Source: Pirellulales bacterium (lineage in GTDB: Bacteria; Planctomycetota; Planctomycetia; Pirellulales; UBA1268). Taken from it: a stretch of 64,000 bases of DNA. Positions within the stretch are counted from its first letter, which is position 1, and every line of letters starts with the position of its first letter. The notes under the pieces were generated by a model that saw only the letters and a program-made list of their open reading frames with translations, ran no database searches and was not told the origin of the DNA. This document shows, piece after piece, positions 28,726-55,095 of this stretch. The position numbers and the translations under genes are program-made. The stretch covers positions 5,189-69,188 of the forward strand of contig JBAVTF010000102.1 in the NCBI GenBank assembly GCA_049695995.1, in the 5' to 3' direction.

Positions 28726-29706
28726 TCACCCATACGCCTGCCGCATCAGCCGCCGTGTGATCGCCCGTTTTACGGCCCGAATCAATCGCAGTGTGCGAGG
28801 AACCGGGCCTCTTCCGTATTCCAGATACGCGCTGAATCGCCAGCGATGATACGGCGGCACACCCGCCGCGTGTGCAACCGCCGCTCGCATGCGGGCGTGA
28901 TCCAAGTGCCGGTCATATTGATGCAGCACCAGGCACGTAGGGGGCGTCTGATCCGGCGGCTGCCGCGGCTCCCAATCGAATCGTAGCTCATCAAACGGCG
29001 TTATGCCGATCGACCGCATCCAGCCATCCTCTGCCGCGCTGATCTCGAAGTCCGGCAACTGTCCCGCGTATGCCAGGTGGTTGTGAAGCGGCTGATCGCC
29101 GATTCGTTGGGTTAGCTCGACGCCCACTCGCTGCACTTCATCCGACATGGCGGCCAGATAGCCAAGCACTGCCTGACGCGGACCAAACACGGTGCCTGCA
29201 CACAGAATCGGCCTGTGGCCGAGAGCTGCACGTTCGCCCTCCCCGTACCCTTCCGCAATCCAATCGCGATTCCAGTGGTTCGCAGCGATTGGGGTGGCCG
29301 CATGCTCCTGCGAAAGCACGAGCCGCGACACGGTCGTTACAGCTTCGAGTGGCGCCGTCACGATCACGTCGCGGGTGTCGGCAAGGAGAAAATGCGTTTC
29401 GTCACGGGCCTCGATCGCTGCCCGATAGAGCGCGTGCCTGCGGCCGTAAAGCTCGAAAAGCCACTCGCGGCGGCGTGCAGCCGCTGCCTTGTGATCCACG
29501 CCTAGCCGAGGCGACGGCTCTATGGCCTCAACTGACTCCACTCGATACTCGTCAAACAAGAAACGATCTGCGTCGCCGAGCGGAGCGGTAACGAGAACGA
29601 TCGCCGTCCGCGGCGAGTGCAGCCGCACGCTCCGCACGAGCAGTTCGACGTTTTGCCAGACACGATCCCTTGGATAGGCCGCCAGCCCCAAGATCGCTTC
29701 GGCCAT
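28726..29706 (-). CDS. hypothetical protein, possible GT-A-like nucleotide-sugar transferase fold
   Basis: 326 aa, with alternating beta/alpha pattern (TAIVLVTAPLGDADRF; HFLLADTRDVIVTAP, a DxD-like motif). No family recognised. Confidence 0.45.
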   Translation of the reverse strand: MAEAILGLAAYPRDRVWQNVELLVRSVRLHSPRTAIVLVTAPLGDADRFLFDEYRVESVEAIEPSPRLGVDHKAAAARRREWLFELYGRRHALYRAAIEARDETHFLLADTRDVIVTAPLEAVTTVSRLVLSQEHAATPIAANHWNRDWIAEGYGEGERAALGHRPILCAGTVFGPRQAVLGYLAAMSDEVQRVGVELTQRIGDQPLHNHLAYAGQLPDFEISAAEDGWMRSIGITPFDELRFDWEPRQPPDQTPPTCLVLHQYDRHLDHARMRAAVAHAAGVPPYHRWRFSAYLEYGRGPVPRTLRLIRAVKRAITRRLMRQAYG

Positions 29707-29849
29707 GGTCGTACGTCCTGCGTGTCTGCTGCGGCTTTGGCATTTCCTGCAACGCATGCAGGCGTGATCATCATTTGTACCCCACAGGGATTCGCTGGAA
29801 GAAAACGCTGCCTCTCGTTGACCAGCAGCTCGCACCCCTTGGATACACT

Positions 29850-33328: not shown

Positions 33329-34087
33329 TCAGCAGTGTTTCATTTTCTTATTGATCACAAACAACCACCCTCGGTCGCAGTGCTCGTCGGGACGGCTGTT
33401 CTCGGTGAAGTGGTAGTAGGGCAGCCCAAGGCCGCGCACCGTGCCCTCCAACGTCGCGAGGGCGGGAAAGGCTTCAGGCTGGTTCGTGTCGTGGAAAAAC
33501 AGGAATCCGTCGTGCTTCACGATGCGCAGGTGCTGATCGAGCCACTCCGGGCTGCGGTAGTGGTCCGCATCCGAGATCAGCATGTCATAGGCGCCCGTCG
33601 GAGCAGAACGCACGAACTCTTCTTCACCGCTGCACACGATGTTGACGCCGAGCGCTCGCAATTGCTTGGCAATAGGCGGCTCCTGCCCTTGCGTATCGTA
33701 CCAATTGTCAACACTGGTCAGTTGGCCCACGCCGTTGTAGCGAATCGCGTAGGCGAGGCTGGCGGAGAGATACCCGCTGCCGACGCCCAATTCGACAACC
33801 GCTTTCGGCTTCATTGACAGCACCATGCCCGCGACCAGCATGTTGTGGGCACGATCGAGCGCCACCGGATTGCGATGATCGAACGACAAAACGAGATTGA
33901 AATAGGAAACGAGATCGTCGTTCCTCTCACCCGGCTTCAGTCCTGCGGATGAAGTGGAATGAAGATCCGCAAACCGGGGAGGCGCACCGCCGGCTTGGCG
34001 AATAGCCGCAGCGAATCGCTGCGCCATCCCGAGCATCGGCCCCGGCAGAACGGCCTTGATCGCTCGCTTTACGGTATTGAGAGCCAT
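33329..34087 (-). CDS. class I SAM-dependent methyltransferase
   Basis: VVELGVGSGYLSASLA (motif I) and YDMLISDADH. 252 aa. Confidence 0.8.
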   Translation of the reverse strand: MALNTVKRAIKAVLPGPMLGMAQRFAAAIRQAGGAPPRFADLHSTSSAGLKPGERNDDLVSYFNLVLSFDHRNPVALDRAHNMLVAGMVLSMKPKAVVELGVGSGYLSASLAYAIRYNGVGQLTSVDNWYDTQGQEPPIAKQLRALGVNIVCSGEEEFVRSAPTGAYDMLISDADHYRSPEWLDQHLRIVKHDGFLFFHDTNQPEAFPALATLEGTVRGLGLPYYHFTENSRPDEHCDRGWLFVINKKMKHC

Positions 34088-34264: not shown

Positions 34265-35140
34265 TCACTCTTGCGAACGCACTTCCTTGGTTTTCAGAAC
34301 GATCAGGTAGTCATAGATTGCCATGAGCATGCAGTAATGAAACCCGGGCCCGCCGTCCCAAAACCCACGCCGCAGGAAATACAGATACAGAAATCGCCAC
34401 AACGGCCGGGCCGGCAACGAATCAGCGAGCCGCTTGCGGGACTGTTGCCGCTCTTGGCGCGTGGCCCCACGAAATGCACTGACGAGCGCTCTGCTCCACG
34501 GCATCCGGAGAGAAGCGATCCGTTTTGCTTCGTCCGATGAATACCGATTGTGGCGGCTAAGCCAGTCGGAGATGCCTTTCGAAAAGTTGTAGTGCAAGTA
34601 GGGCTCGCGGAGCGTTCCCACGCCGCGTGCAGTCGGCCCGAGAGTCTGCCCATGACCGGTCTGCACAAACCGTGATTCACCGATCCGCAGAAGCCTCGCC
34701 TGGTAATAGGGATACATGCTCGCATGCCGAATCCACCGGTCCATGAACATCAGCTTGTTCGCGAGGAGATAAGCGCTCTTCTCGTCGCGCGCCACGACAT
34801 CCAGCAGCTCGTGATGCAAGGCCGGCGTCATGCACTCATCGGCATCGAGGTGCAGCACCCAGGGGTGCCTGAATGGCACAGTGTCGATCGCCCAGTTGCG
34901 CTGGCCGGCAAACGTGTCGAACTGCCTCTCGAACGTCCTGACGGGATATCGCTCGCACACTTGTAGCGTTGCGTCGGAACTGTATGAGTCGAGCACCACG
35001 ATGTCGTCACACGCTTGCAGGGAATCCAGGCATCGGCTGATGTTCACCGCTTCGTTGCGTGTGAGAATGAGAACCGAATATCCGGTGGACTCCGCCGCCG
35101 CACCCCTCAGCGGAGCTATTTGTGTTCCGTCAATGTTCAT
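34265..35140 (-). CDS. family 2 glycosyltransferase
   Basis: YSVLILTRNEAVNISRCLDSL...IVVLDSYSSDAT...LHLDADE (DxD). Start at the ATG at 35140, overlapping the upstream stop (TGATG). Confidence 0.85.
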   Translation of the reverse strand: MNIDGTQIAPLRGAAAESTGYSVLILTRNEAVNISRCLDSLQACDDIVVLDSYSSDATLQVCERYPVRTFERQFDTFAGQRNWAIDTVPFRHPWVLHLDADECMTPALHHELLDVVARDEKSAYLLANKLMFMDRWIRHASMYPYYQARLLRIGESRFVQTGHGQTLGPTARGVGTLREPYLHYNFSKGISDWLSRHNRYSSDEAKRIASLRMPWSRALVSAFRGATRQERQQSRKRLADSLPARPLWRFLYLYFLRRGFWDGGPGFHYCMLMAIYDYLIVLKTKEVRSQE

Positions 35141-36114
35141 CACTGACCTTCCGTCCGATTCCGGAGGCGGTGATACGCAGTGTTGAGACAGCGGTTGCCC
35201 CGCAGCCAATACCCGATCGTGCCGGCCACCATTGAAACGCTGTCGGACAGCATGCCAAGCGGTCCGCGGGGCTGGCAAAAGCGACGATAGACGGAGAAAT
35301 GTGGCATGGCTGGATGGAGTCGGATTCCAGCCCAATGCAGGAAGAGCATCTGCCGCCGGTGCTGCAAACCTCCGAAGTCCCACTTACGCCACACCCCGTC
35401 GGCATCTTCGTAGACAGATCCGCGATCGTTCGCCCACGCCGAGTGCGCGAAGCGACTCTCGAGGTCGGCGATGTGGCAGGCGCGGAGCCCATGGGAGTCG
35501 CACAGATAGTTCAAGAAGAACTGGTCGGTGTTTCGGGGATTCATCTGGTCCCGCACCGCAACCAGCTCCTTCCCGGCAGCCTCCATCTGCTCGAGAGAAA
35601 ACAGCCCCTTCCGGCTCGCCCAGATATTGCTGCTGAAACCGTGGCCCAGACCCTTACGACAAAAGCCGGTGCGAATTGGCCCGTCGTTGTAGACCTGGTT
35701 GATCACGGCGTCGTAGTGCACGAGTGGCACGTCGTGCGAACGGGCGGCCGCCGCAAAGCCCGATGTATCGGCCAACACGAGCATGCGGCAGTCCAGGTAC
35801 GCGAATGCGTCAAACGGGCCGTCGAACGCCGCGAACCTGCGGAACCAGTGCGGGCCGGTCGCCGTCTTGCCGATTTCGAGATCACGGCCGATCCGCTCCA
35901 GCCGTTGGAATGCCGCGTCGTCGCGATAGACGTCGCCCCCCGCCTGCCGCACGAGCGCTTCGCAGCGACCGCTCTGCTCGTCAAAAGGAATCAACAGAAG
36001 CGGAAGGGCGGGGTTGTAGACCCGAAAACTGGCGACGAAGGCCGAGAGCCAATCCGCGACGCGGTCATTGGCGAGCACGAACACGCCAGTCCGCGGATCA
36101 CTGTTTTCCATCAT
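35140..36114 (-). CDS. hypothetical protein, possible GT-A-like transferase
   Basis: 324 aa (VFVLANDRVADWLSAFVASFRVYNP...FAYLDCRMLVLAD). Coupled to the downstream GT2. No family confidently recognised. Confidence 0.45.
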   Translation of the reverse strand: MMENSDPRTGVFVLANDRVADWLSAFVASFRVYNPALPLLLIPFDEQSGRCEALVRQAGGDVYRDDAAFQRLERIGRDLEIGKTATGPHWFRRFAAFDGPFDAFAYLDCRMLVLADTSGFAAAARSHDVPLVHYDAVINQVYNDGPIRTGFCRKGLGHGFSSNIWASRKGLFSLEQMEAAGKELVAVRDQMNPRNTDQFFLNYLCDSHGLRACHIADLESRFAHSAWANDRGSVYEDADGVWRKWDFGGLQHRRQMLFLHWAGIRLHPAMPHFSVYRRFCQPRGPLGMLSDSVSMVAGTIGYWLRGNRCLNTAYHRLRNRTEGQ

Positions 36115-36394: not shown

Positions 36395-37180
36395 ATGAAA
36401 GTCGTCATCCTCTGCGGTGGCAAAGGTACGCGGCTCCGCGAAGAAACGGAGTATCGCCCGAAGCCCATGGTCCCGATCGGCGGCAAGCCGATTCTCTGGC
36501 ACATCATGAAGACCTATGCCCATTACGGGCACAAGGAGTTCATTCTCTGCCTTGGCTACAAGGGGGAGATGATCAAAGACTTCTTCCGCAACTACATGTG
36601 GGCAACAAGCGATGTCACCATGAAACTCGGCCGCGGATCGTCGGTAACGTTTCATGACCACGTCGATGAACTCGACTGGACCGTGACGCTCGCCGACACG
36701 GGCGAAGACAGCATGACGGCCTACCGTATCCGGCGAATCGAGCGATACCTGGGGGATGACGACACGTTTCTTCTCACGTACGGCGACGGCGTGGGGAACA
36801 TCGATATCACGGGCTCGATCGCCTTTCACCACGAGCACCGTCGTGCCTGCACGCTCACCGGCGTCCATCCTCCAGGGCGGTTCGGCGAATTGGGCATCGG
36901 TCAGAAGTCCGAAGTTACGCACTTCAATGAGAAGCCGCAGTCCGAGGGCGGCTATATCAACGGCGGCTACATGGTCTGCGACCGGAGACTCTTCACCTAT
37001 CTCCCGGACGATCCGAGCATGATGCTTGAACGGCAGCCAATGAGCGACATGGTTCGCGCCCGCGACTTGGCCGTGTTCCGCCACAATGGTTTTTGGCAGC
37101 CAATGGATACGTTCCAGGAATTGGTCCTTCTCAACCAGTTGTGGTCGAACGGCAAGGCGCCTTGGAAGGTGTGGCCATGA
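36395..37180 (+). CDS. rfbF: glucose-1-phosphate cytidylyltransferase
   Basis: MKVVILCGGKGTRLREETEYRPKPMVPIGGKPILWHIMKTYAHYGHKEFILCLGYKG is the characteristic RfbF/DdhA N-terminus. Confidence 0.9.
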   Translation: MKVVILCGGKGTRLREETEYRPKPMVPIGGKPILWHIMKTYAHYGHKEFILCLGYKGEMIKDFFRNYMWATSDVTMKLGRGSSVTFHDHVDELDWTVTLADTGEDSMTAYRIRRIERYLGDDDTFLLTYGDGVGNIDITGSIAFHHEHRRACTLTGVHPPGRFGELGIGQKSEVTHFNEKPQSEGGYINGGYMVCDRRLFTYLPDDPSMMLERQPMSDMVRARDLAVFRHNGFWQPMDTFQELVLLNQLWSNGKAPWKVWP

Positions 37181-38325
37181 CCATCGCCCACGAACAAGCT
37201 TTGTTCGGCGGTGCGTTTCATGGCGCCCGCGTGCTCGTCACGGGCCATACGGGCTTCAAGGGCTCATGGCTGTGCGAATGGCTGCTGGCTCTCGGCGCTC
37301 AGATCACGGGCCTTGCCCTCGAACCCGACACCACTCCCGCTCTCTTCACGCAACTAGGGCTCGCGTCCAGGGTGCGTCACATCGTAGGTGACGTTCGTTC
37401 GCCCGACGTCGTTCGGCGGATCGTTGCCGAAACATCGCCGGACTTCGTATTCCACCTTGCCGCCCAGCCCCTCGTGCGTCGTTCCTATCGGAAGGCGACC
37501 TACACGTGGGAGACAAACGTGCTGGGCACAGTGCACGTGCTCGACGCACTGCGGCAACTCGACAAGCCCTGCGCGGCCGTCATGGTGACCACAGACAAGT
37601 GCTACGAAAATCGCGAATGGCTCTACGGCTATCGGGAAAACGACCCGCTCGGTGGGCACGATCCCTACAGTTCCAGCAAGGCAGCCGCCGAACTTGCAAT
37701 AGCTTCGTGGCGGAACTCATTTTTCGCCTCGGGCGATCCCGTCCGGATCGCGAGCGCCCGCGCCGGCAACGTGATTGGCGGCGGCGACTGGGCCGAGGAT
37801 CGGATCGCGCCCGACTGCGCCCGCGCAGTGACCCACAACAACGCGATTGCCGTCCGCAACAAGACGGCCACGCGTCCGTGGCAGCACGTCCTCGAACCGC
37901 TGAGCGGCTACCTCTGGCTCGCCGCCGTGCTGGCCAATCCGACACTGCGGCCTTATGCGGCTGATTTATTTACCTCAGCATTCAATTTCGGACCTTCCTC
38001 CGAGTCAAATCGGACCGTAGTCCAACTTGTAGAGGCATTTTTGCGACACTGGCCGGGGCAATGGGCTGACCAGAGCGATCCGGCCGCTTCCCATGAAGCG
38101 GGTCAGCTCAGCCTGGCGACCGACAAGGCGCTTCAGATCCTCGGTTGGGAACCATGCTGGGACTTCGAAGACGCCGTCCTAAAGACTGCCACATGGTATC
38201 GACGCTGCCACGAAGGTTGGGATCCGGCTGAGCTGACCCGCAGAGATCTCGATGATTACGAGGCACTCGCACGTCAGAAGAACATTTGCTGGATGCCCCA
38301 GAAACGGAAGCATTGTAAGTCATGA
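37177..38325 (+). CDS. rfbG: CDP-glucose 4,6-dehydratase
   Basis: VLVTGHTGFKGSWLCEWLLALGA, TTDKCYEN and PYSSSKAAAE. ATGA-coupled to rfbF. Confidence 0.9.
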   Translation: MTIAHEQALFGGAFHGARVLVTGHTGFKGSWLCEWLLALGAQITGLALEPDTTPALFTQLGLASRVRHIVGDVRSPDVVRRIVAETSPDFVFHLAAQPLVRRSYRKATYTWETNVLGTVHVLDALRQLDKPCAAVMVTTDKCYENREWLYGYRENDPLGGHDPYSSSKAAAELAIASWRNSFFASGDPVRIASARAGNVIGGGDWAEDRIAPDCARAVTHNNAIAVRNKTATRPWQHVLEPLSGYLWLAAVLANPTLRPYAADLFTSAFNFGPSSESNRTVVQLVEAFLRHWPGQWADQSDPAASHEAGQLSLATDKALQILGWEPCWDFEDAVLKTATWYRRCHEGWDPAELTRRDLDDYEALARQKNICWMPQKRKHCKS

Positions 38326-39566
38326 AGATGCCCATGATACGACGACTGAACGGGTGTCGAGTCTGCGGAAGTGCGGACTTGACTGCGTTTCTTCATCTTG
38401 CCGACATGCCGTTCACGGACGACTTCGTCCCGCCGGCTCGCTTCGGTTCCGAGTTTCGCGCCGACATAGACGTGTTCCTGTGTCGCGGGTGTCTCACGGC
38501 GCAGACACAACACGACGTCGATGTTGGTGACTACTACGAGGACTACCAGTATTCCGTAGGCGGATCCGGCACTGCCAGCAGATTCATGCGGCAACTCGCC
38601 GAGCAGAGCCAAGCAACCTTCTATCCGGGTGAGACCGGAAGAAAAGTGCTTGAGGTCGGTTCGGGTGACGGAGAGCAACTGGTGGCTTTCAAGCAGACGG
38701 GTTGCAAAGTCCTTGGATATGAGCCGTCGTCGACGCTGTGCCGGGCGGCTCTCGATAAAGGTATCGAGTCGGTGCAGGGACTGTTTACTGCCAATTCGGT
38801 CCGGCAGTTGCCGCCGGATTTCCGTCAGGTCGACGTATTGATGCTGTCGTACACCTTTGATCACCTTCCCGATCCGCGGGAATTCGTGGCGACCAGCCGG
38901 TCAATCCTAAATCCCGAGCAAGGACTGCTGATCGTCGAGATTCACGACCTCGAGAAGATCATAGCCCGGCAAGAATATTGCTTGTTCGAGCACGAGCACT
39001 CGATCTATCTAACCGAGGCGACGGCAGCAAATCTGTGCCGGCTGGAGGACATGGAAATCGTCAGTTTTGATCTCGTTCCGCAAAGCGATCGCCGCGCCAA
39101 TTCGCTAATTTTCGTGGCGACGCCCAAAGGGTCACGATTTTCACACCGCCCCGCGGCACCCCGCACGCCGCCAAGCTTCGCCGACCCGGAGTTTTATCGG
39201 CAGGTCAGCGCGAATATTTTCCGCGGAGTCGCGAACCTTGAGGCGTTTGTGGACAACAGGACTCGCCGCGGCAGAAGCCTCGCGGGCTACGGCGCGGGCG
39301 GACGGGGAGTGATGACTATGAGCGCGATGAAGAACGCTTCTCGGCTCCGTTATCTGGTCGACAAAAAGCCCAAACGCCCCGGGCTGCTCGCGCCGAAGTC
39401 CGGCGTTCCAGTGGTTGGGCCCGACGGATTACAGGTCGATCCTGTCAACGACATCATCGTGTTTAGTTTCGGATATTTCGAGGAAATCCGTGATGAAGTC
39501 GGGCAAATAGGCTACCGTCCTGAGCAGCTCCATTCCCTGGTCGACATCCTCGCCGGGCGCTTCTAG
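38322..39566 (+). CDS. NDP-hexose C-methyltransferase-type enzyme (Zn-ribbon + SAM MT + C-methyltransferase C-terminal domain)
   Basis: N-terminal CRVCGS...CRGCL zinc ribbon, SAM motif VLEVGSGDGEQL, and a long C-terminal domain as in TylCIII-like enzymes. Confidence 0.7.
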   Translation: MKMPMIRRLNGCRVCGSADLTAFLHLADMPFTDDFVPPARFGSEFRADIDVFLCRGCLTAQTQHDVDVGDYYEDYQYSVGGSGTASRFMRQLAEQSQATFYPGETGRKVLEVGSGDGEQLVAFKQTGCKVLGYEPSSTLCRAALDKGIESVQGLFTANSVRQLPPDFRQVDVLMLSYTFDHLPDPREFVATSRSILNPEQGLLIVEIHDLEKIIARQEYCLFEHEHSIYLTEATAANLCRLEDMEIVSFDLVPQSDRRANSLIFVATPKGSRFSHRPAAPRTPPSFADPEFYRQVSANIFRGVANLEAFVDNRTRRGRSLAGYGAGGRGVMTMSAMKNASRLRYLVDKKPKRPGLLAPKSGVPVVGPDGLQVDPVNDIIVFSFGYFEEIRDEVGQIGYRPEQLHSLVDILAGRF

Positions 39567-39569
39567 CCA

Positions 39570-40514
39570 ATGAAGCACCACGTTGTCATAACGGGGGCAA
39601 CGGGATTCATCGGTGCTGCGATCGCGGCGACCATGCTGCGGCGCGGCTGGAGCGTCACAACGCTCGTTCGGCCTCACTCCAACCTTGATCGCTTGCGTGA
39701 GCTATCAGGGCACTCTGTCCTAGTCTGTCCAGGGTTTGCTGATCACGCGGTCCGGGCAGAATTGCGTGAGCGTCGTCCCGACGCCTTCGTTCATTGCGCG
39801 TGGCGCGGCGTTAGCGGAGCCGACAGAAACGAGAAGTTTCAGGTTCAGGACAATCTCGCAATGACCCTGACCACAGTCGATTTGGCCGCGACTGTGGGCT
39901 GTCAACAGTGGATTGGACTCGGGTCCCAAGCGGAATACGGCAATCTCAACCGGCGAATCGACGAGAATGATTCGCCCCGTCCGACCACGCTGTATGGGAA
40001 GGCGAAACTGGCGGCTGGAATAGCGTCACTCGCGTTATGCCAAGCTCATGGAATGCTGGGCACATGGCTCCGCGTGTTTTCCACCTACGGGCCGGGAGAC
40101 TCTCCTCGCTGGTTCTTGCCGTATGTCATCAGGGAGTTTTTGGCGGGTCGTCCGCCAGAACTCACCAAGTGCGAGCAGCGGTGGGATTACTTGTATGTTG
40201 ACGACGCCGCAAGAGCTGTGACGGAAGTTGTAGAAACATCGGCCCATGGGGTCTTCAATTTGGGCTCGGGCAGTTCGCGGCCGTTACGGGACTATGTCGA
40301 TGCTATCGTCCGGGAACTCGGCTGCGTCACCAAGCCCGCTTATGGCGCTGTTCCCTACAGGACAGACCAGGTCATGCATCTCGAAGCCGACATCTCCCGC
40401 CTGTCGACTGCCGTTGGCTGGATACCGACGACGATGCTTAACGACGGAATTCGCGCAACAGTCGCTTTTGAGCGAACGCGGACCGCCACAGGACCCTCAG
40501 GATCCAAGCCATGA
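39570..40514 (+). CDS. extended-SDR NAD-dependent sugar epimerase/reductase
   Basis: VVITGATGFIGAAIA and LYGKAKLAAG (YxxxK). Confidence 0.8.
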   Translation: MKHHVVITGATGFIGAAIAATMLRRGWSVTTLVRPHSNLDRLRELSGHSVLVCPGFADHAVRAELRERRPDAFVHCAWRGVSGADRNEKFQVQDNLAMTLTTVDLAATVGCQQWIGLGSQAEYGNLNRRIDENDSPRPTTLYGKAKLAAGIASLALCQAHGMLGTWLRVFSTYGPGDSPRWFLPYVIREFLAGRPPELTKCEQRWDYLYVDDAARAVTEVVETSAHGVFNLGSGSSRPLRDYVDAIVRELGCVTKPAYGAVPYRTDQVMHLEADISRLSTAVGWIPTTMLNDGIRATVAFERTRTATGPSGSKP

Positions 40515-41317
40515 ATTCTCACACCTTGGCATGTTGCATCCGACGGCTGTCTTTGCAAATGGTGCACGCAGCAAATGCGTCCCACATTGGAGGCGCCTTG
40601 TCCATGGCCGACCTCATCGCAGTCCTTTACAGCGACGTACTGCGCGTGCGCCCCGAAGACCCGCAGTGGCCACTTCGCGACCGTTTCATTCTTAGCAAAG
40701 GTCATTGCTGCGTGGCTCTTTACGCAGCTCTAGCAACCAAGGGGTTCTTCAGTAGCGACGAGCTCACTTCATACGGCGCTAATGGATCGAGGTTGATGAC
40801 CCACATCAGCCATAAGGTTCCCGGGGTCGAATTTTCCACCGGCTCACTCGGCCACGGACTGCCATTTGCCGCTGGTCGCGCCCTGGCGGCAAAACGTCAA
40901 CACTGCGACTGGAAGACATTCGTCCTGCTCAGCGACGGCGAACTAGACGAGGGATCGAACTGGGAAGCAATCCTCTTTGCCCCACACCATCGCCTCGACA
41001 ATCTCGTAGTAATCATCGACTACAACAAAATCCAAAGCCTTGGCTCAGTTTCGGAAGTCGTGGAGCTACACCCATTAGCCGATAAGTTCCGAGCTTTTCG
41101 CTGGACCGTGCAAGAAATCGACGGTCACGATCACGGCCAGATTAAACACGCGCTGACTAGCACTCCGTGGGCGCCAGGAAAACCAAGCGTTGTGCTTGCT
41201 CATACCGTGAAGGGGAAAGGCATTGACTTCATGGAGGGCAACCTCAAATGGCATTACAGCGCACCCACTCCTCAACAACTCGGAGTCGCCCTCAGCCAGA
41301 TCGAGGGCACATCGTGA
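40511..41317 (+). CDS. transketolase N-terminal (ThDP-binding) subunit
   Basis: HIGGALSMADLIAVLY, ILSKGHCCVALYA, GSLGHGLPFAAG and LLSDGELDEGSNWEA. Confidence 0.9.
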   Translation: MNSHTLACCIRRLSLQMVHAANASHIGGALSMADLIAVLYSDVLRVRPEDPQWPLRDRFILSKGHCCVALYAALATKGFFSSDELTSYGANGSRLMTHISHKVPGVEFSTGSLGHGLPFAAGRALAAKRQHCDWKTFVLLSDGELDEGSNWEAILFAPHHRLDNLVVIIDYNKIQSLGSVSEVVELHPLADKFRAFRWTVQEIDGHDHGQIKHALTSTPWAPGKPSVVLAHTVKGKGIDFMEGNLKWHYSAPTPQQLGVALSQIEGTS

Positions 41318-42216
41318 GAACCGCATTTATTCAACACCTTATCGAACACGCACGTACGAACCCACGGCTCTTTCTCGTCGTCGGGGATCTCGGATACTCC
41401 GTGGTCGAACCCTTTGCGGCCGAATTTCCCGATCGGTTTCTCAATGCAGGCGTAGCCGAGCAAAACATGACCGGCGTTGCGGCCGGCCTCGCCGCGGAGG
41501 GATATCACGTCTTCACATACTCGATCGCGAATTTCCCAACCCTTCGTTGCCTAGAGCAAATCCGTAACGACATCTGCTACCACGGCTTCCCAGTAACGAT
41601 CGTTTCCGTTGGTGCGGGGCTTGCTTATGGAAACCTAGGATTCTCCCACCACGGAATCCAAGACATCGCAACGCTGCGATGCATGCCCAACATTACGATC
41701 GCCAGCCCTGCTGATCCCGAGGAGACGCGCGGGTGCCTTGCCTATCTAATAGCAAACCCCGGCCCGTCATATTTGCGACTCGGGAAAGCCGGCGAACCGC
41801 AGCTGCACCGCGTCCCCATCGATGGACTGCGGCCGCTGAACTTAATTGATGGCAAGGCTGCCCTGGCGATCGTCGGCACCGGCGCAATTGTTGCCACTGC
41901 CCTGGAGGCAGCACGCCAACTGAGGGAATGCGGCCTAGATTGCTCAGTTTTTTCGGTGCCATTCCTCGCGCCCAGCAATGGCGATGCTTTCAACGCCCTC
42001 TGGCAGATGCCAAACATAATTACAGTAGAGGAACATGTTGCTGCGGGCGGACTAGGCAGCTTGATCAAAGAGAATGCTCCACACGGCGTGCGCGTCCGCT
42101 CCCTGTGCGTGAATGAATCTCTCTTCTCAGCCGTCGGTTCCCAGAAGACACTGTGGGAAGCGAATGGCCTTACTGCCGATGCACTGGTTTTGCAAGCACG
42201 GCAGCTACTTCAGTGA
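41314..42216 (+). CDS. transketolase C-terminal (pyrimidine-binding) subunit
   Basis: The GTG start overlaps the upstream stop. FLNAGVAEQNMTGVAAGLA, SIANFPTLRCLEQIRNDI and HHGIQDIATLRCMPN. Confidence 0.85.
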   Translation: MRTAFIQHLIEHARTNPRLFLVVGDLGYSVVEPFAAEFPDRFLNAGVAEQNMTGVAAGLAAEGYHVFTYSIANFPTLRCLEQIRNDICYHGFPVTIVSVGAGLAYGNLGFSHHGIQDIATLRCMPNITIASPADPEETRGCLAYLIANPGPSYLRLGKAGEPQLHRVPIDGLRPLNLIDGKAALAIVGTGAIVATALEAARQLRECGLDCSVFSVPFLAPSNGDAFNALWQMPNIITVEEHVAAGGLGSLIKENAPHGVRVRSLCVNESLFSAVGSQKTLWEANGLTADALVLQARQLLQ

Positions 42217-42389: not shown

Positions 42390-43460
42390 GTGTACCACCA
42401 TAAGGCCTTGCCTGACGCCGCCGCGGTAAAGAGCACCCAGCTGCTTATAGCTATCCCCACCTTTAATCGCGCCCCTCGGCTCCGCGATACCCTGGAGGCT
42501 CTTGCTCCGCAATTAACTCCTGAGGTGTCTGTACTGTTGCTTGACAATCACAGTACCGACGACACACCAAGAATTTGCGAGGCCTTCCGATCACGCTTTC
42601 CAAATAATGTCACGGTGTCTCGCAATAATGCCAACGTCGGCGTATTACCAAATGTCATGAAGTGCTTCGAGGCCGCACAAGCCGGCTGGCTGTGGCCCCT
42701 CCCAGACGACGACGAGATTCTGCCAGACGCCATCTCCCTTGCAACGTCCGTTATTGAACGGCATCCAACAGCCGTGTTCGTCAATTTCTCCACCTCCTTA
42801 CTGAAGGCCCATGGAATTGATCGAGATCAAGAGATCATCTTCAGCAGCCTCGACGATTTTCTTGCTCGTTGCGACTCCTTTGGCAACACCCTTTTCTTGA
42901 CAGCAACCTTTTACAACTGCGAGGCAGTAAGGAAAGAGCTCCGAACTGCCTACCTCACCCTACATACTTTCGCCCCCCATGTCGCCATCCAACTGTTGGC
43001 GCTAGCCAAACCCAACGCCATTGCAGTACAGTCCGACGTGCGCATCGCAAATTGGGGAACAAATGTTGAATGGAGCAATAAAGCCGTCTCAGACGGCATG
43101 ACTGGCCTTCTGAGATTGGTGTCGTCTGCCAACGGCCGTCACAATCTGAATCAATTAATCGAAAAGGAATTTCCTTTTTCTGCACGCAGTCGCTCACGGC
43201 TCTCGGCGGCTTTTAACGCAGCCGCCGATGGCCCCGCAGCTCTTTCCGACCGAATAGCCAAGTGCGGCACCATCACGGCATTCACCGGCAGGTACCGCCT
43301 ACACTTAGTTCTGCTCCTAGTTCTACAGCTTCTCGACACCGTTTATATCGGACAGGGCATTTGTTTTGTGAGGTCCGTGCTAGATAGACTCCGAAAGCGC
43401 AAGGTCCGAAGCGCGAATGGAGGAGCGCTTGCGGACTTTGAGAATTGCGAGCGGTTGTGA
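42390..43460 (+). CDS. family 2 glycosyltransferase
   Basis: LLIAIPTFNRAPRLRDTLEAL...LLLDNHSTDDT...PLPDDDE. GTG start, exact position uncertain. Confidence 0.8.
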   Translation: MYHHKALPDAAAVKSTQLLIAIPTFNRAPRLRDTLEALAPQLTPEVSVLLLDNHSTDDTPRICEAFRSRFPNNVTVSRNNANVGVLPNVMKCFEAAQAGWLWPLPDDDEILPDAISLATSVIERHPTAVFVNFSTSLLKAHGIDRDQEIIFSSLDDFLARCDSFGNTLFLTATFYNCEAVRKELRTAYLTLHTFAPHVAIQLLALAKPNAIAVQSDVRIANWGTNVEWSNKAVSDGMTGLLRLVSSANGRHNLNQLIEKEFPFSARSRSRLSAAFNAAADGPAALSDRIAKCGTITAFTGRYRLHLVLLLVLQLLDTVYIGQGICFVRSVLDRLRKRKVRSANGGALADFENCERL

Positions 43461-44496: not shown

Positions 44497-46265
44497 GCAC
44501 ACTGTGGCGACTCCTGACTCGTAGGCAGCGGGTGCTATTCGTTGCGCTCGTGTTCGTGAATCTGATTGCCGCCGGCGCTGAAGTGCTGGGCGTGTTTTCC
44601 GTGCTGCCTTTCCTCGCTTTGGCCAGCGATCCCGGCCTCTGCGAAACCCAGCAGTCCTTGCACTCTGTATACACAGGCTTCGGCTTTCAGTCCCATCTCT
44701 CATTTGTAATTGCAGCAGGCATCGCGACCGTCGCATCACTGGTGCTCACGAACGTGATCGCTATGGGATCGCTCTGGTTTCGGACGTGGTACTGCAGTCA
44801 GGTCGTCACCGATATGTCCGACCGCTTATTGCGAGGGTATCTCGCGCAGCCTTACGAGTTCTTTCTTTCGCGCAACGCAAGTGTCCTTGGCAAAGATCTG
44901 CTCAACGAAGCCCAAGGCTTTTTCACCTATGCGCTCGAACCGTTTACTGTGCTCATCGCGCGGGCCTTGCAGATCACCGCCGTCGCTATCGCATTGCTAT
45001 TTTTCGATTGGCGTACCACTCTGTTGGCAGCGTTGTTGTTTGGTGGCTTCTACGTTGCGATCTATCTGGTCCTTACGAAGCGTATCCATCGCTATGGGCA
45101 CGACCGCTACGTAGCCAACGAGGCGAGGTATAAGCTGGCGAGCGAGGCCTTGGGCGGCATGAAGGAACTCAAGCTCTTTGGCCGGGAGCGATGGTACGCA
45201 GATGCATTCGATTCCGCTTCTCAAACCATGGTGCGAACCCAAGGCCGCCTCGCGATTTACTCGTTGACACCACGTTATGCCTTGGAGATTCTCATTTTCT
45301 CCGCGGTTGTGCTGGCAGTGCTCTGGAAGCTGGCCAACGGCGAGCCCTTTCAGAGGCTCGCCCCTTCGCTAAGCGTTTTTGCGATAGCCGGGCTGCGGTT
45401 GCTCCCCGCGATCCAGCTCGTATTTCAGTATGCGACCGCCTTGGCAGCGGGAGGCATCGCCGTCGATAACCTTCATAAACTGTTCGCCACAGTCGGAGCA
45501 CTCGACACCACCCCCTATTTACCGACGCACCATGAGGCTAAGCTGCCTCTCAGAGGGCGAATCGACGTCGAGAATGTGTCGTTTGCCTACGCCGGCACCC
45601 ATCGCATCGTCTTAGATCGCCTGTCTCTGACGATTTCCGCCGGCCAATGTGTTGGCTTGTGTGGCCCAAGCGGGTCCGGCAAGACAACCCTGGTGGACCT
45701 CTGCCTCGGGCTTCTTACCCCGAACGAAGGTAGCATTCGCGTCGATGCCGAGCTGATCACGGCCGACAATGCAAGCCGGTGGCAGAGGAATATCGGCTAT
45801 GTCCCCCAGGCGATTTATCTGATCGACGGCACAATAGCTGAGAATATTGCTTTCTCAACAGACCCTCGTGCCATCGACATGGCTGCCGTGGAGCGAGCCG
45901 CTCGCTTGGCGCATCTGGACGACGTAATCGCCAACGCGGGCGATGGGTTCAACACCCTTGTTGGAGAACGCGGAGTTCGATTGAGCGGGGGACAACGACA
46001 GCGAGTCGCGATCGCAAGGGCTCTCTATAGCGACCCGGACGTGCTGCTGTTCGATGAGGCGACAAGCGCGCTCGACACCGCGAGTGAGGCGCAGGTGGTT
46101 GAGGCGATTCAATCGCTCGCCCACCTAAAGACCACCATCATCGTTGCACATCGACTGACCACCCTTCGTTATTGCGACGTGATCTACGAACTGCGGAACG
46201 GGCAGCTGGTGCGTTCCGGTGACTATGCCGCTTTTGCGTCGCAAGCCACTGCCTGCGAATCGTGA
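44493..46265 (+). CDS. fused TMD-NBD ABC exporter (MsbA/PglK-like)
   Basis: Six N-terminal TM segments, Walker A GPSGSGKTT, signature LSGGQRQR and Walker B LLFDEATSALD. Confidence 0.9.
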   Translation: MSTLWRLLTRRQRVLFVALVFVNLIAAGAEVLGVFSVLPFLALASDPGLCETQQSLHSVYTGFGFQSHLSFVIAAGIATVASLVLTNVIAMGSLWFRTWYCSQVVTDMSDRLLRGYLAQPYEFFLSRNASVLGKDLLNEAQGFFTYALEPFTVLIARALQITAVAIALLFFDWRTTLLAALLFGGFYVAIYLVLTKRIHRYGHDRYVANEARYKLASEALGGMKELKLFGRERWYADAFDSASQTMVRTQGRLAIYSLTPRYALEILIFSAVVLAVLWKLANGEPFQRLAPSLSVFAIAGLRLLPAIQLVFQYATALAAGGIAVDNLHKLFATVGALDTTPYLPTHHEAKLPLRGRIDVENVSFAYAGTHRIVLDRLSLTISAGQCVGLCGPSGSGKTTLVDLCLGLLTPNEGSIRVDAELITADNASRWQRNIGYVPQAIYLIDGTIAENIAFSTDPRAIDMAAVERAARLAHLDDVIANAGDGFNTLVGERGVRLSGGQRQRVAIARALYSDPDVLLFDEATSALDTASEAQVVEAIQSLAHLKTTIIVAHRLTTLRYCDVIYELRNGQLVRSGDYAAFASQATACES

Positions 46266-46317
46266 CGCGCCCTCTTTGCTAGGGCATCAGGCAACGGCTT
46301 TGGCTGGCAAGATCGGA

Positions 46318-47196
46318 ATGAATCGCGGAATTCTGCTGGTCGCGCATGGCAAGACTTCATATTGGGACGAAGCTACAACGCTTGCGCGATCGCTGCGGCG
46401 GCATTCGCCGCAGCTCACCATCGCCGTGGCAAGCGATTTGGACGTGCCCGAAGCGCAGTGGCGGCGTGATGGATATGACATCTACGTCCCTTTCGACTTT
46501 CGTGAATGCGGCGGCGTGTCTTTCAAGATGCAGCTCGATCGGATCACACCATTCGCCGACGCCACGCTGTTCATCGACTCCGATAGCATTTGCTACCGCG
46601 ACATCAGCGCTGTTTTTGACGCGTTTGCCGGAGACGACTTCGTCACGCTTGGGACCGTCGTCACGAGTTGTCATTGGTTCAAGGACAATTCACTGATCCA
46701 TCGCGAATTCCACTGTGACTCGTTTCCGTTTTTTTGCGGCGACTTTTATTTGTTTCGCACGAGCATAAAGGCGGCTGCGGTATTCGACACGGCTCGGGAA
46801 CGAGCAAGACGGTATCGCGCACTCGGGATCATTCCCCTTGGCGGCTGGTGCAACGATGAGCCGGCATTTTCGCTGGCGATGCTGGAACACAACGTGCCAA
46901 TCAGCTCCGGCGTCGGGGATTGGATTATCCAAGTAGCCCACGAAAAGGTCACGGACATTGACCTAGACTACGCCGCCGGGCGTGCGCGGGCCGTGCTCGA
47001 CGGTGTCGGGATCACTCCCCGGCTGGTCCACTTCTCGACGCACCGATCGCAGCCCCTCTACTTCCGCGAGCGTTACCGGGTCCGGAATCCAGCGAACAAC
47101 TGGTGGAACCGAGTGGCCGCCCAAGGCGTTGGCTCTCTGGAATCGACACGGTATCGCTTGACGAGGCGACTCCGTGCCGCAACAGCCCGCTCGTAG
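46318..47196 (+). CDS. hypothetical protein, possible GT-A-like (GT8-like) transferase
   Basis: ILLVAHGKTSYWDEATTLARSL...TLFIDSDSICYRD (DxD-like). No family confidently recognised. Confidence 0.45.
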   Translation: MNRGILLVAHGKTSYWDEATTLARSLRRHSPQLTIAVASDLDVPEAQWRRDGYDIYVPFDFRECGGVSFKMQLDRITPFADATLFIDSDSICYRDISAVFDAFAGDDFVTLGTVVTSCHWFKDNSLIHREFHCDSFPFFCGDFYLFRTSIKAAAVFDTARERARRYRALGIIPLGGWCNDEPAFSLAMLEHNVPISSGVGDWIIQVAHEKVTDIDLDYAAGRARAVLDGVGITPRLVHFSTHRSQPLYFRERYRVRNPANNWWNRVAAQGVGSLESTRYRLTRRLRAATARS

Positions 47197-47249
47197 CCAG
47201 CACCAGAGCACACTCTTCCGCGAAACGAACACAGGAGTCACGCTTCGCA

Positions 47250-47987
47250 ATGACCACTCTTTCACGCATCCGCTCCGCGATCACATCCGGCGCGAAGCGG
47301 CTTATCAATGGCGTCCTTGACCCTTTGGGGTGCCGCGTGGTCCCAAACCATTCGTTCGACGTATTCGACGCGATAGTTCACAGATTCAACCGGCCGGGAT
47401 TCACGTTCGTGCAAATCGGTGCGAACGACGGGAAAAGGTTCGACCCGATCTTTCAGTACGTCACACGCTACGGGTGGAAAGGCTATGCGCTCGAGCCGAT
47501 TTCCGAGTATTTCCAAGAGCTAAAGCGCAACTACTCGCAACATCCGCAGGTCACGTGCTGCCAGGTCGCGATCTATGAAAAAGATGGTCCGTTAACGCTG
47601 TACCGCGTCGATCCAACGGCGAGTGATCTGCCCGAGTGGTCCAAAGGCATAGCGTCGGTGTTTCAAGACCACCATCACAAGTCGGGGACTCCGAGCGACA
47701 AAATGATCGCGGAGGAGGTTCAGGGCCAGCGATTCGAGACGTTCATCGCGTCGCACGGTATCTCGCGGTGCGATCTGCTTCAGATCGACACGGAAGGCTA
47801 CGACTATCACATCCTGAAAATGATCGACTTCGACCGCTGGGCGCCGAGCATCATTCGCTTTGAGCACGGGATGACGGATCGCATCATGTCGGCCGAGCAG
47901 TTTTCCGAAGTCGCTCAGCTTCTGGCCCGCAACGGCTACGACTTTTTCGTGGGCCAGTTTGATTGCTATGCCGCGAAGCGAGGGTAA
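47250..47987 (+). CDS. FkbM-family methyltransferase
   Basis: FVQIGANDGKRFDPI and LQIDTEGYDYHILKMIDF. AGGAG Shine-Dalgarno upstream. Confidence 0.85.
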   Translation: MTTLSRIRSAITSGAKRLINGVLDPLGCRVVPNHSFDVFDAIVHRFNRPGFTFVQIGANDGKRFDPIFQYVTRYGWKGYALEPISEYFQELKRNYSQHPQVTCCQVAIYEKDGPLTLYRVDPTASDLPEWSKGIASVFQDHHHKSGTPSDKMIAEEVQGQRFETFIASHGISRCDLLQIDTEGYDYHILKMIDFDRWAPSIIRFEHGMTDRIMSAEQFSEVAQLLARNGYDFFVGQFDCYAAKRG

Positions 47988-55090: not shown

Positions 55091-55095
55091 CCGCC

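What the first reader, a model, noticed from the sequence alone, without database searches (positions are those of the whole stretch)
36395..42216. CDP-glucose pathway feeding a C-methyltransferase and a split transketolase instead of the dideoxy (RfbH/RfbI) enzymes
rfbF and rfbG generate CDP-4-keto-6-deoxyglucose. The usual 3-deoxygenation genes are absent. The coupled operon continues with a TylCIII-type C-methyltransferase, an SDR reductase/epimerase and a two-subunit ThDP transketolase. ThDP enzymes are known to attach two-carbon branches to keto-sugars, as YerE does in yersiniose biosynthesis. A CDP-activated sugar that is C-methylated and/or carries a two-carbon branch would be an unusual bacterial glycan component. 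This block is also among the most AT-rich parts of the window.
Basis: inference. Interest (0 to 1): 0.6.

Follow-up and report, generated by a model that had tools for sequence, protein, structure and literature searches.

The report
Branched CDP-sugar operon with split transketolase
Six tightly coupled genes turn CDP-glucose into a rare C-methylated sugar, and probably add a two-carbon branch using a two-part transketolase-like enzyme whose pocket no longer fits sugar phosphates; that reaction has been proposed for this enzyme class but never demonstrated.

Summary
Window 36395-42216 (+) holds six translationally coupled genes:
- rfbF and rfbG, both above the curated equivalog cut-offs
- a TylCIII/TcaB9-type 3-C-methyltransferase
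- an extended SDR
- a split ThDP transketolase (TKn, TKc)

No RfbH exists anywhere in the genome, which does carry a normal full-length transketolase elsewhere.

The split transketolase belongs to a very large uncharacterised clade:
- All donor-side catalytic residues are kept.
- The phosphate-binding His is always Gly, the acceptor-binding Asp is never Asp, and the second phosphate Arg is mostly Lys.
- In 34 of 56 informative loci from many phyla it follows rfbF-rfbG.
- The module between them varies: a C-methyltransferase as here, RfbH plus a reductase (the YerE substrate), or nothing.
- TKn also occurs fused to C-methyltransferase, NDP-sugar SDR, DegT and other glycan enzymes.

Most likely the enzyme adds a two-carbon unit to C4 of the CDP-4-keto sugar. 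One relative has the first four genes without the transketolase, so those four can work alone.

The operon is compositionally foreign (GC 0.586 against 0.676). This scan met the same transketolase family before on other DNA; the C-methyltransferase variant is new to it. No biochemistry exists.

The parts
36395..37180 (+). rfbF, glucose-1-phosphate cytidylyltransferase (261 aa)
   Evidence: TIGR02623 equivalog, 333 bits against a cut-off of 300. Its stop overlaps the rfbG start as ATGA.
37177..38325 (+). rfbG, CDP-glucose 4,6-dehydratase (382 aa)
   Evidence: TIGR02622 equivalog, 458 bits against a cut-off of 278. It is the only copy over the cut-off in the genome. A YSSSK catalytic motif is present.
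38322..39566 (+). TylCIII/TcaB9-type NDP-hexose 3-C-methyltransferase (414 aa)
   Evidence: Pfam PF08421, SAM domain and PF08484. Matches PDB MtmC 4rv9 (E 4e-36) and TcaB9 (E 4e-24) over the full length. The Zn Cys4 site and the Tyr76, His181 and Glu224-His225 equivalents are kept. Orthologues at 60-73% identity lie in the same cassette elsewhere.
39570..40514 (+). Extended SDR (314 aa), probably an NADPH-dependent ketoreductase of the CDP-sugar pathway
   Evidence: Pfam Epimerase, E 3e-37. GATGFIG and YGKAK motifs, with Arg after strand 2. Orthologues at 52-62% identity sit directly upstream of TKn in relatives, and at 58% identity in the transketolase-less L097. SDR-TKn fusions exist.
40511..41317 (+). 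TKn, ThDP-binding (PP-domain) subunit of the split transketolase-like enzyme (268 aa)
   Evidence: PF00456, E 5e-48. Matches PDB 6yak chain A, E 3e-70. The His37, His77, His110, His258, Asp155 and Asn185 equivalents are invariant in 79/79 family members.
41314..42216 (+). TKc, pyrimidine-binding plus C-terminal subunit (300 aa; GTG start overlapping the TKn stop)
   Evidence: PF02779 and PF02780. Matches PDB 6yaj, E 2e-47. Start set. Glu366, Arg318 and the His473(Ec) equivalent are kept. His416 is Gly, Asp424 is Leu and Arg474 is Lys.
42390..43460 (+). GT2 glycosyltransferase, candidate transferase for the cassette's sugar
   Evidence: PF00535. It is 33-34% identical to the GT2 that lies shortly downstream of TKc in L001, L003, L007, L043 and L096. 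The link is by conserved neighbourhood only.

Best explanation
This is a horizontally acquired six-gene operon that builds an unusual CDP-activated deoxysugar for the surrounding polysaccharide locus.

Steps supported by strong homology:
1. RfbF makes CDP-glucose.
2. RfbG makes CDP-4-keto-6-deoxy-D-glucose.
3. The TylCIII/TcaB9-type enzyme uses SAM to methylate C3, next to the 4-keto group.

Steps that are inferred:
4. The split transketolase-like enzyme forms a ThDP-bound two-carbon carbanion. Because all transketolase donor-side histidines are kept, this is most likely a dihydroxyethyl (glycolaldehyde) unit taken from hydroxypyruvate or a ketose.
5. That carbanion adds to the C4 ketone of the CDP-sugar, giving a tertiary alcohol with a hydroxyacetyl branch.
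6. The NADPH-type SDR then reduces a ketone, either the branch carbonyl (as YerF does) or C4 of any intermediate that escapes branching.
7. The conserved GT2 downstream transfers the product.

The rebuilt pocket (His to Gly, Asp to Leu, Arg to Lys) would make room for a pyranose ring, while the remaining Arg and Lys could hold the CDP diphosphate. The enzyme is thus a transketolase-superfamily analogue of YerE. Here it is combined with 3-C-methylation instead of 3-deoxygenation.
For: - Gene identities are at equivalog or architecture level.
- The genes are translationally coupled.
- The genome has its own full-length transketolase at 432 bits, so the split pair is an accessory.
- Catalytic and cofactor residues are invariant: 79/79 in TKn, and Glu366 79/79 in TKc.
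- The phosphate-binding His416 equivalent is Gly in 79/79 locus copies and 151/151 representatives of 50%-identity clusters. The Asp424 equivalent is never Asp. The Arg474 equivalent is Lys in 62/79. The canonical split transketolase 6yaj has His, Asp and Arg at these positions.
- Synteny: 34 of 56 loci with at least 6 kb upstream carry rfbF on the same strand, across Verrucomicrobiota, Planctomycetota, Bacteroidota, Pseudomonadota, Cyanobacteriota, Chloroflexota and Chlorobiota.
- The module between rfbG and the transketolase varies. It can be the C-methyltransferase, RfbH (equivalog, 686 bits) plus a flavin reductase (which makes YerE's substrate), or nothing.
- TKn is fused to C-methyltransferase (5 clusters), NDP-sugar SDR (11), DegT (2), FkbM (20) and Bac_transf (7). 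One C-MT::TKn fusion was verified on NCBI DNA as L103.
- A 2025 review states that split-gene transketolases are proposed, but unproven, to transfer hydroxyacetyl to a keto sugar in miharamycin and amipurimycin biosynthesis (PMC12247030).
Against: - There is no biochemical evidence for any member of the clade.
- L097 carries rfbF-rfbG-C-MT-SDR (58% identical to this SDR)-TylF with no transketolase. The SDR may therefore simply be the C4 reductase of a cereose/vinelose-type pathway, which would leave no dedicated reductase for a branch.
- Addition to a ketone flanked by a quaternary C3 is sterically demanding.
- About 40% of family loci show no rfbF nearby. Some sit in non-sugar contexts, such as an E1 dehydrogenase with lipoyl and hydrolase genes in L058.
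- The donor cannot be read from the sequence, because DXS, which uses pyruvate, keeps similar histidines.
- Some fusions may be frameshift artefacts. L104 also has a split rfbG.
- The residue numbering of human and E. coli transketolase comes from my memory of the literature, applied to tool alignments.
Confidence: 0.55

Rival explanations
1. There are two products from one intermediate. The first four genes form a complete cereose/cillose- or vinelose-type pathway, in which the SDR reduces C4 to give CDP-3-C-methyl-6-deoxyhexose. The transketolase diverts part of the 4-keto pool, methylated or not, into a second 4-C-acyl sugar whose branch ketone stays unreduced. The two GT2 genes downstream each transfer one sugar.
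For: - L097 has the four genes plus TylF and no transketolase, with an SDR 58% identical to this one.
- CDP-cillose and CDP-cereose pathways ending in C4 reductases are established (PMC7725333).
- Two GT2 genes follow the operon.
Against: - The SDR family is glued to TKn, directly upstream and sometimes fused to it, even where no C-methyltransferase exists.
- In the minimal rfbF-rfbG-SDR-TK cassettes of Bacteroidota, a plain C4 reductase would make an ordinary 6-deoxyhexose and leave the transketolase idle.
Confidence: 0.2
2. The site and acceptor are the same, but the donor is pyruvate, as in DXS or YerE. The enzyme decarboxylates pyruvate and installs an acetyl branch, which the SDR reduces to 1-hydroxyethyl (yersiniose-type).
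For: - TKc scores almost as well against DXS models and structures as against transketolases (TIGR00204, 107 bits; PDB DXS hits rank second to eleventh).
- All characterised sugar-branching ThDP enzymes (YerE, the alpha-KADH2 group) use 2-oxo acids, mostly pyruvate (PMC12247030).
- Many relatives act after RfbH on exactly YerE's substrate.
Against: - TKn is much closer to transketolases than to DXS (PF00456, 164 bits; DXP_synthase_N, 20 bits).
- All four transketolase histidines that hold the donor hydroxymethyl are invariant.
- Kinase genes are fused or adjacent in some relatives. That would make sense if a primary hydroxyl is created.
Confidence: 0.2
3. The transketolase pair does not touch the CDP-sugar. 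It makes or cleaves a small non-nucleotide metabolite that supplies a decoration or precursor for the glycan, and its place in the operon reflects co-regulation only.
For: - About 40% of family loci lack rfbF nearby, and a few lie in non-sugar contexts.
- Fusion partners include FkbM, GNAT and kinase domains, which are not specific to NDP-sugars.
Against: - Loss of the phosphate-binding His and the acceptor Asp argues against ordinary sugar phosphates.
- There are fusions to NDP-sugar SDR, sugar C-methyltransferase and DegT.
- Translational coupling to the SDR.
- The common denominator of the contexts is always an NDP-4-keto-6-deoxyhexose-forming dehydratase.
Confidence: 0.12
4. The C-methyltransferase methylates the side chain installed by the transketolase (alpha to the new branch ketone) rather than C3 of the ring, extending the branch.
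For: A second, divergent C-methyltransferase paralogue sits next to TKn or is fused to it in relatives (L001, L014, L022, L100, L103).
Against: - The window's enzyme is the other paralogue. It lies directly after rfbG and before the SDR.
- It keeps the TcaB9 active-site set.
- It is present in the transketolase-less L097.
Confidence: 0.07

Closest known systems
Yersiniose A pathway of Yersinia pseudotuberculosis (DdhA-D, YerE, YerF)
   Same: It starts with CDP-glucose and a 4,6-dehydratase. A ThDP enzyme adds a two-carbon unit to the C4 ketone, and a reductase follows. Many relatives of this cassette even include RfbH and a flavin reductase, so they make YerE's own substrate.
   Different: YerE is a decarboxylase/acetolactate-synthase-type flavoenzyme that uses pyruvate. 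The enzyme here is a two-subunit transketolase-superfamily protein with no homology to YerE. This window has a 3-C-methyltransferase in place of 3-deoxygenation.
Split-gene transketolases proposed for miharamycin and amipurimycin biosynthesis in Streptomyces (review PMC12247030)
   Same: They are two-subunit transketolases embedded in a sugar-tailoring cluster and proposed to transfer hydroxyacetyl to a keto sugar. They are likewise unproven.
   Different: Those act in nucleoside-antibiotic clusters. Only 13 were predicted, all in Streptomycetes. This clade sits in cell-surface polysaccharide loci of many phyla and is linked to CDP-sugars. I could not fetch the Streptomyces sequences, so their relation to this clade is untested.
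CDP-cereose/CDP-cillose operon of Bacillus cereus and CDP-vinelose of Azotobacter vinelandii (CDP-3-C-methyl-6-deoxyhexoses)
   Same: The first four genes have the same logic: cytidylyltransferase, 4,6-dehydratase, SAM C-methyltransferase and a reductase. L097 shows this four-gene set standing alone, with a TylF O-methyltransferase.
   Different: Those pathways have no ThDP enzyme. Orthology to the B. cereus genes was not tested. The details of the B. cereus operon and of vinelose are from memory; PMC7725333 confirms only that the two CDP-sugar pathways end in homologous C4 reductases.
Canonical split transketolase of Carboxydothermus hydrogenoformans (PDB 6yak/6yaj)
   Same: It is the closest solved structure (E 3e-70 and 2e-47), with the same two-gene architecture, cofactor site and catalytic histidines.
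   Different: It keeps the His, Asp and Arg that bind sugar-phosphate substrates. This clade has Gly, Leu/Gln/Ala and Lys at those positions.
TylCIII, TcaB9, MtmC and KijD1 NDP-hexose 3-C-methyltransferases
   Same: Three-domain architecture, Zn site and catalytic residues.
   Different: Those act on dTDP-sugars of antibiotics. This one follows a CDP-glucose dehydratase and is about 25-30% identical to them.

Membership tests
Glucose-1-phosphate cytidylyltransferase (RfbF/DdhA, TIGR02623) | Whole-protein score over the curated equivalog cut-off | tested here: met
   333.3 bits against 300.25, covering model positions 1-255 of 255.
CDP-glucose 4,6-dehydratase (RfbG/DdhB, TIGR02622) | Score over the equivalog cut-off, plus the SDR catalytic YxxxK motif | tested here: met
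   458.3 bits against 278.45. YSSSK is present.
TylCIII/TcaB9-type NDP-hexose 3-C-methyltransferase | N-terminal Cys4 Zn domain, SAM domain and C-terminal C-methyltransferase domain | tested here: met
   PF08421, PF13489 and PF08484. The CxxC pairs align with those of TcaB9 and MtmC.
TylCIII/TcaB9-type NDP-hexose 3-C-methyltransferase | Active-site Tyr76, His181 and Glu224-His225 (TcaB9 numbering, from memory of the Holden-lab papers) | tested here: met
   All four align with identical residues. Tyr222 is Glu.
TylCIII/TcaB9-type NDP-hexose 3-C-methyltransferase | Methyl transfer to C3 of an NDP-4-keto sugar | not testable with these tools
   Needs an enzyme assay with CDP-4-keto-6-deoxyglucose and SAM.
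Transketolase, EC 2.2.1.1 (canonical) | ThDP/metal motif, cofactor-activating Glu and the donor-side histidines | tested here: met
   Asp155, Asn185, His37, His77, His110 and His258 equivalents are 79/79. Glu366 is 79/79.
Transketolase, EC 2.2.1.1 (canonical) | Phosphate-binding His and Arg, and the Asp that reads the acceptor C2-OH (E. coli His461, Arg520, Asp469) | tested here: not met
   Gly, Lys and Leu here. Gly is invariant in 151/151 representatives, and Asp never occurs.
Transketolase, EC 2.2.1.1 (canonical) | Housekeeping role in the pentose-phosphate pathway | tested here: not met
   A full-length transketolase (432 bits) lies on another contig. The split pair sits in a foreign glycan operon.
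YerE-like ThDP carboligases (decarboxylase superfamily) | Homology to acetolactate-synthase/decarboxylase-type ThDP enzymes | tested here: not met
   The only Pfam and NCBIfam hits are transketolase, DXS and E1 families. The resemblance is functional only.
CDP-3,6-dideoxyhexose pathway (RfbH/E1 plus RfbI/E3) | Presence of the 3-dehydrase RfbH | tested here: not met
   The best genome hit to NF011936 scores 178 bits against a cut-off of 423. RfbH is present in many related cassettes.
CDP-sugar-linked split transketolase clade (uncharacterised; defined here and in earlier scan reports) | Gly at the His416 position, a non-Asp residue at 424, two-gene layout, and neighbourhood of NDP-4-keto-sugar genes | tested here: met
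   The window falls in a well-supported PVC sub-clade.

The most novel reading that the evidence does not exclude
The operon makes a doubly branched CDP-sugar, 3-C-methyl plus a 4-C two-carbon (hydroxyacetyl or dihydroxyethyl) branch on a 6-deoxyhexose. The step is carried out by the first transketolase shown to use a nucleotide-sugar ketone as acceptor. The enzyme would represent a very large, cross-phylum family (more than 150 clusters at 50% identity) that installs tertiary-alcohol branches in bacterial surface glycans.
Probability: 0.35. Interest if true: 0.8.

Novelty: new variant of a known kind. Interest (0 to 1): 0.62.

Why it matters
ThDP-dependent branching of keto-sugars is known only for YerE-type and E1-type enzymes. 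For transketolases it is a published proposal that has never been demonstrated.

This clade gives that proposal a broad and testable footing:
- thousands of members
- a diagnostic pocket signature
- gene fusions to NDP-sugar enzymes
- cultured carriers, such as Segetibacter aerophilus, Marinobacter confluentis and Bradyrhizobium guangdongense

If the reading is confirmed, three things follow:
- Many environmental and gut bacteria decorate their surfaces with unknown C-branched sugars.
- Biocatalysis would gain a transketolase that makes functionalised tertiary alcohols.
- The C-methyl variant seen here would yield a sugar type not yet described.

Tried and rejected
- **Literature.** Searches combined transketolase with CDP-glucose, rfbF/rfbG, C-methyltransferase, yersiniose or branched sugars. 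They found nothing on transketolases in polysaccharide loci, only the 2025 review. Krug et al. 2024 and Romo et al. 2019 are not held, so I could not compare with the Streptomyces split transketolases.
- **Housekeeping transketolase.** Rejected because of the second, full-length transketolase and the pocket changes.
- **O- or N-methyltransferase.** Rejected on architecture and active-site residues.
- **O-methyltransferases of the window as cassette members.** I tested whether 33329-34087(-), 47103-47987 and 54910-55908 are orthologues of the TylF or FkbM genes found inside related cassettes. There were no hits at E 1e-8.
- **SDR tied strictly to the transketolase.** Not upheld, because L097 has the SDR without a transketolase.
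- **Lys/Arg at position 474 tracking CDP-type against UDP-type contexts.** The pattern exists, but the Arg forms are essentially one clade, so it is not independent evidence.
- **Nearest tree neighbour.** L016 (Kuenenia sp.) showed no recognisable sugar genes among the five + strand neighbours that I scanned.
- **Close relative P0001.** Its contig could not be fetched as DNA.
- **Structure or complex prediction.** None was run. Halves of a split transketolase would pass by likeness to solved structures and would not identify the substrate.

Full report
**What is there**

Between 36395 and 42216 on the + strand lie six genes.
- RfbF (36395-37180) passes the curated equivalog model for glucose-1-phosphate cytidylyltransferase: TIGR02623, 333 bits, cut-off 300.
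- RfbG (37177-38325) passes the model for CDP-glucose 4,6-dehydratase: TIGR02622, 458 bits, cut-off 278.
- The third gene (38322-39566) has the three-domain architecture of sugar C-methyltransferases: a Zn-binding Methyltransf_13 domain, a SAM domain and the C-terminal Methyltransf_14 domain.
- Its only solved relatives are the 3-C-methyltransferases MtmC, TcaB9 and KijD1, aligned end to end.
- The four Zn cysteines and the equivalents of TcaB9 Tyr76, His181 and the Glu224-His225 dyad are all present.
- The fourth gene (39570-40514) is an extended SDR with GATGFIG and YGKAK motifs and an Arg after the second strand, which points to NADPH.
- The last two genes are the ThDP-binding and pyrimidine-binding halves of a split transketolase.
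- TKc starts at GTG 41314, not at ATG 41248. Homologues begin at residue 23-24 of the long ORF, and the GTG overlaps the TKn stop.
- The junctions are ATGA, ATGA, a 3-nt gap, ATGA and GTGA, which is a translationally coupled operon.
- A 173-nt gap separates the operon from a GT2 gene.

**Setting**

The operon lies in a large polysaccharide locus. The locus includes GT2 and GT4 transferases, a PglK/MsbA-type ABC exporter, Wzy_C proteins, acyltransferases and methyltransferases.

- The genome (3.86 Mb, 92.8% complete) has GC 0.676. The cassette has 0.586, lower than 99.5% of 6-kb windows.
- Only 1 of 400 sampled genomes of the same phylum has a relative of the C-methyltransferase, at 41% identity.
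- The closest relatives of every gene are verrucomicrobial, at 53-73% identity.
- The operon is therefore horizontally acquired.
- No RfbH exists in the genome (best 178 bits against a cut-off of 423), and there is only one CDP-glucose dehydratase.
- A normal full-length transketolase is encoded on another contig (432 bits).
I did not verify this.

**The transketolase is not an ordinary one**

I aligned TKc to the canonical split transketolase 6yaj and, through it, to human and E. coli transketolase. The numbering of those two comes from my memory of the literature.

Residues kept:
- the cofactor Glu
- Arg318 (E. coli Arg358)
- the His473(Ec) equivalent

Residues replaced:
- the phosphate-binding His416 (Ec His461) by Gly
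- Asp424 (Ec Asp469, which reads the acceptor's C2 hydroxyl) by Leu
- Arg474 (Ec Arg520) by Lys

How general the pattern is:
- In 79 copies from 80 related loci, Gly is invariant, Asp never occurs, and Lys is found in 62.
- In 150 representatives of 50%-identity clusters, Gly is again invariant and Asp absent.
- All 150 representatives score above the canonical enzyme.
- On the TKn side, the four catalytic histidines and both metal ligands are invariant in 79/79.

The enzyme should therefore still make a ThDP-bound carbanion, but its acceptor site has been rebuilt.

**Neighbourhood evidence**

Of 56 related loci with at least 6 kb upstream, 34 carry rfbF, usually followed by rfbG, on the same strand. 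They come from seven or more phyla. What lies between rfbG and the transketolase varies:
- a C-methyltransferase and SDR, as here (L003, L011-13, L024, L055)
- RfbH (equivalog, 686 bits) with a flavin reductase and an SDR, a route to CDP-3,6-dideoxy-4-ketohexose, which is YerE's substrate (L026, L027, L030, L035, L050)
- only an SDR (Bacteroidota)

A third clade lacks rfbF. It sits instead with a Bac_transf initiating transferase, DegT aminotransferases and a PglF-like dehydratase. The common denominator is an enzyme that makes an NDP-4-keto-6-deoxyhexose.

A tree of TKn plus TKc gives three well-supported clades: PVC, Bacteroidota and the rfbF-less group. Context types are shuffled within them, so this is a modular add-on.

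**Test from the other side**

I took orthologues of the C-methyltransferase (60-73% identical), chosen only because their contigs were long.
- Eight of nine (seven of eight independent) lie in the order rfbF-rfbG-C-MT-SDR-[TylF or a second C-MT]-TKn-TKc.
- The exception, L097, has rfbF-rfbG-C-MT-SDR-TylF-GT2 and no transketolase. Its SDR is 58% identical to the window's, as close as the SDRs of transketolase-bearing cassettes.
- The first four genes can therefore work alone, as in the CDP-cereose/cillose or vinelose type of pathway. The SDR may be a C4 reductase.

**Fusions**

Among longer proteins, TKn of this clade is fused at its N-terminus to the following partners:
- a sugar C-methyltransferase (5 clusters)
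- an NDP-sugar SDR (11, one of them 44% identical to this SDR)
- DegT (2)
- FkbM (20)
- TylF (1)
- kinase-like domains (15)
- Bac_transf (7)
- GNAT (3)

Both parts are covered in full in the sample of 17 fusion proteins that I aligned to the window's proteins.
- One C-MT::TKn fusion translates exactly from an NCBI assembly of a Phycisphaerae MAG. There it follows a window-type C-methyltransferase and an SDR and precedes TKc (L103).
- One SDR::TKn example (L104) lies on a contig that also has a split rfbG, so it may be an artefact.

**Mechanism**

The steps up to CDP-3-C-methyl-4-keto-6-deoxyhexose rest on strong homology. The inferred step is that the transketolase-like enzyme adds its two-carbon carbanion to the C4 ketone, as YerE does with pyruvate in yersiniose synthesis.

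- Because the histidines that hold the donor hydroxymethyl are invariant, I favour a glycolaldehyde unit from hydroxypyruvate or a ketose, giving a hydroxyacetyl branch.
- A DXS-like use of pyruvate cannot be excluded.
- Gly and Leu would open space for the pyranose ring. The remaining Arg and Lys lie where the phosphate of a sugar phosphate binds, and could hold the CDP diphosphate.
- The SDR then reduces either the branch ketone or C4 of unbranched intermediate. L097 makes the second role plausible.
- The GT2 at 42390-43460 is 33-34% identical to a GT2 that follows the transketolase in five relatives. It is the candidate transferase.

**Comparison with the known**

A 2025 review (PMC12247030) records the state of the field:
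- Sugar branching is established for YerE-like decarboxylases and E1-type (alpha-KADH2) enzymes.
- Split-gene transketolases are only proposed, for miharamycin and amipurimycin.
- Thirteen such transketolases have been predicted, all in Streptomycetes, and none characterised.

I found nothing in the library on transketolases in CDP-sugar or polysaccharide loci.

This scan has met the same family before on other DNA (e1-3568048, e1-2815827, e1-3061198) and reached the same reading, always with RfbH or DegT partners. The pairing with a TylCIII-type C-methyltransferase is what is new here. It turns out to be a conserved PVC cassette rather than a one-off.

**Verdict**

I rate it a new variant of a known kind: ThDP-dependent branching of NDP-keto-sugars. 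It is of moderate to high interest, because the chemistry is proposed but undemonstrated and the family is very large. All of it awaits an enzyme assay.

Noticed in passing
L097:6082-12115: A relative has rfbF-rfbG-C-MT-SDR-TylF-GT2 with no transketolase. It is the only transketolase-less case among nine sampled C-methyltransferase orthologues, and it looks like a CDP-vinelose-type (3-C-methyl, O-methyl) pathway.
   Followed up: partly
L095:7116-12065: A compact five-gene version (rfbF, C-MT, one 347-aa SDR-like protein, TKn, TKc) sits alone between housekeeping genes (lptF/G-like, mnmA-like), outside any glycan locus. The 347-aa protein gave no full-length match to either the window's RfbG or its SDR.
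   Followed up: partly
L103:7001-9037: A second, divergent C-methyltransferase paralogue (about 27% identical to the window's) is fused in frame to TKn in a Phycisphaerae MAG. The same paralogue is a separate gene next to TKn in L001, L014, L022 and L100. Some loci therefore have two C-methylations.
   Followed up: partly
L051, L060, L079 (second TKc-like gene about 2-3 kb upstream of the main pair): A different transketolase-C-like protein, flanked by two unknown protein families (about 350-400 aa and 400-460 aa), has Gly-Gly at the Glu423/Asp424 positions and Gln or His at the 428 position. It may be another specialised ThDP system.
   Followed up: no
L005, L028, L077 (genes between rfbG and the SDR); fusion proteins P0394, P0395, P0404: A kinase-like protein (APH, thiamine-kinase or fructosamine-kinase fold) is adjacent to TKn or fused to it in a subset of loci. 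It might phosphorylate a primary hydroxyl created by a glycolaldehyde branch, or prepare a donor.
   Followed up: no
L038, L039, L072, L076 (downstream of TKc): In the rfbF-less clade, TKc is followed by a DegT sugar aminotransferase and then a class-I (aspartate/methionine-type) aminotransferase. The latter could make a 2-oxo-acid donor such as hydroxypyruvate from serine.
   Followed up: no
L058:6375-9924: In Defluviicoccus, the same transketolase clade sits after a fused E1 alpha-beta dehydrogenase and a protein with lipoyl, E3-binding and hydrolase domains. This is a non-sugar-looking context for the family.
   Followed up: no
window 46219-47196 (+), 35140-36114 (-) and 28726-29835 (-): Three proteins of about 300-370 aa in the glycan island have no Pfam family at E 0.001. 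They have no counterpart in the related cassettes.
   Followed up: partly
window 26001-64000: The whole 38-kb right-hand part of the window has GC 0.608, against 0.692 for the first 26 kb and 0.676 for the genome. The entire island, not only the cassette, looks foreign.
   Followed up: partly
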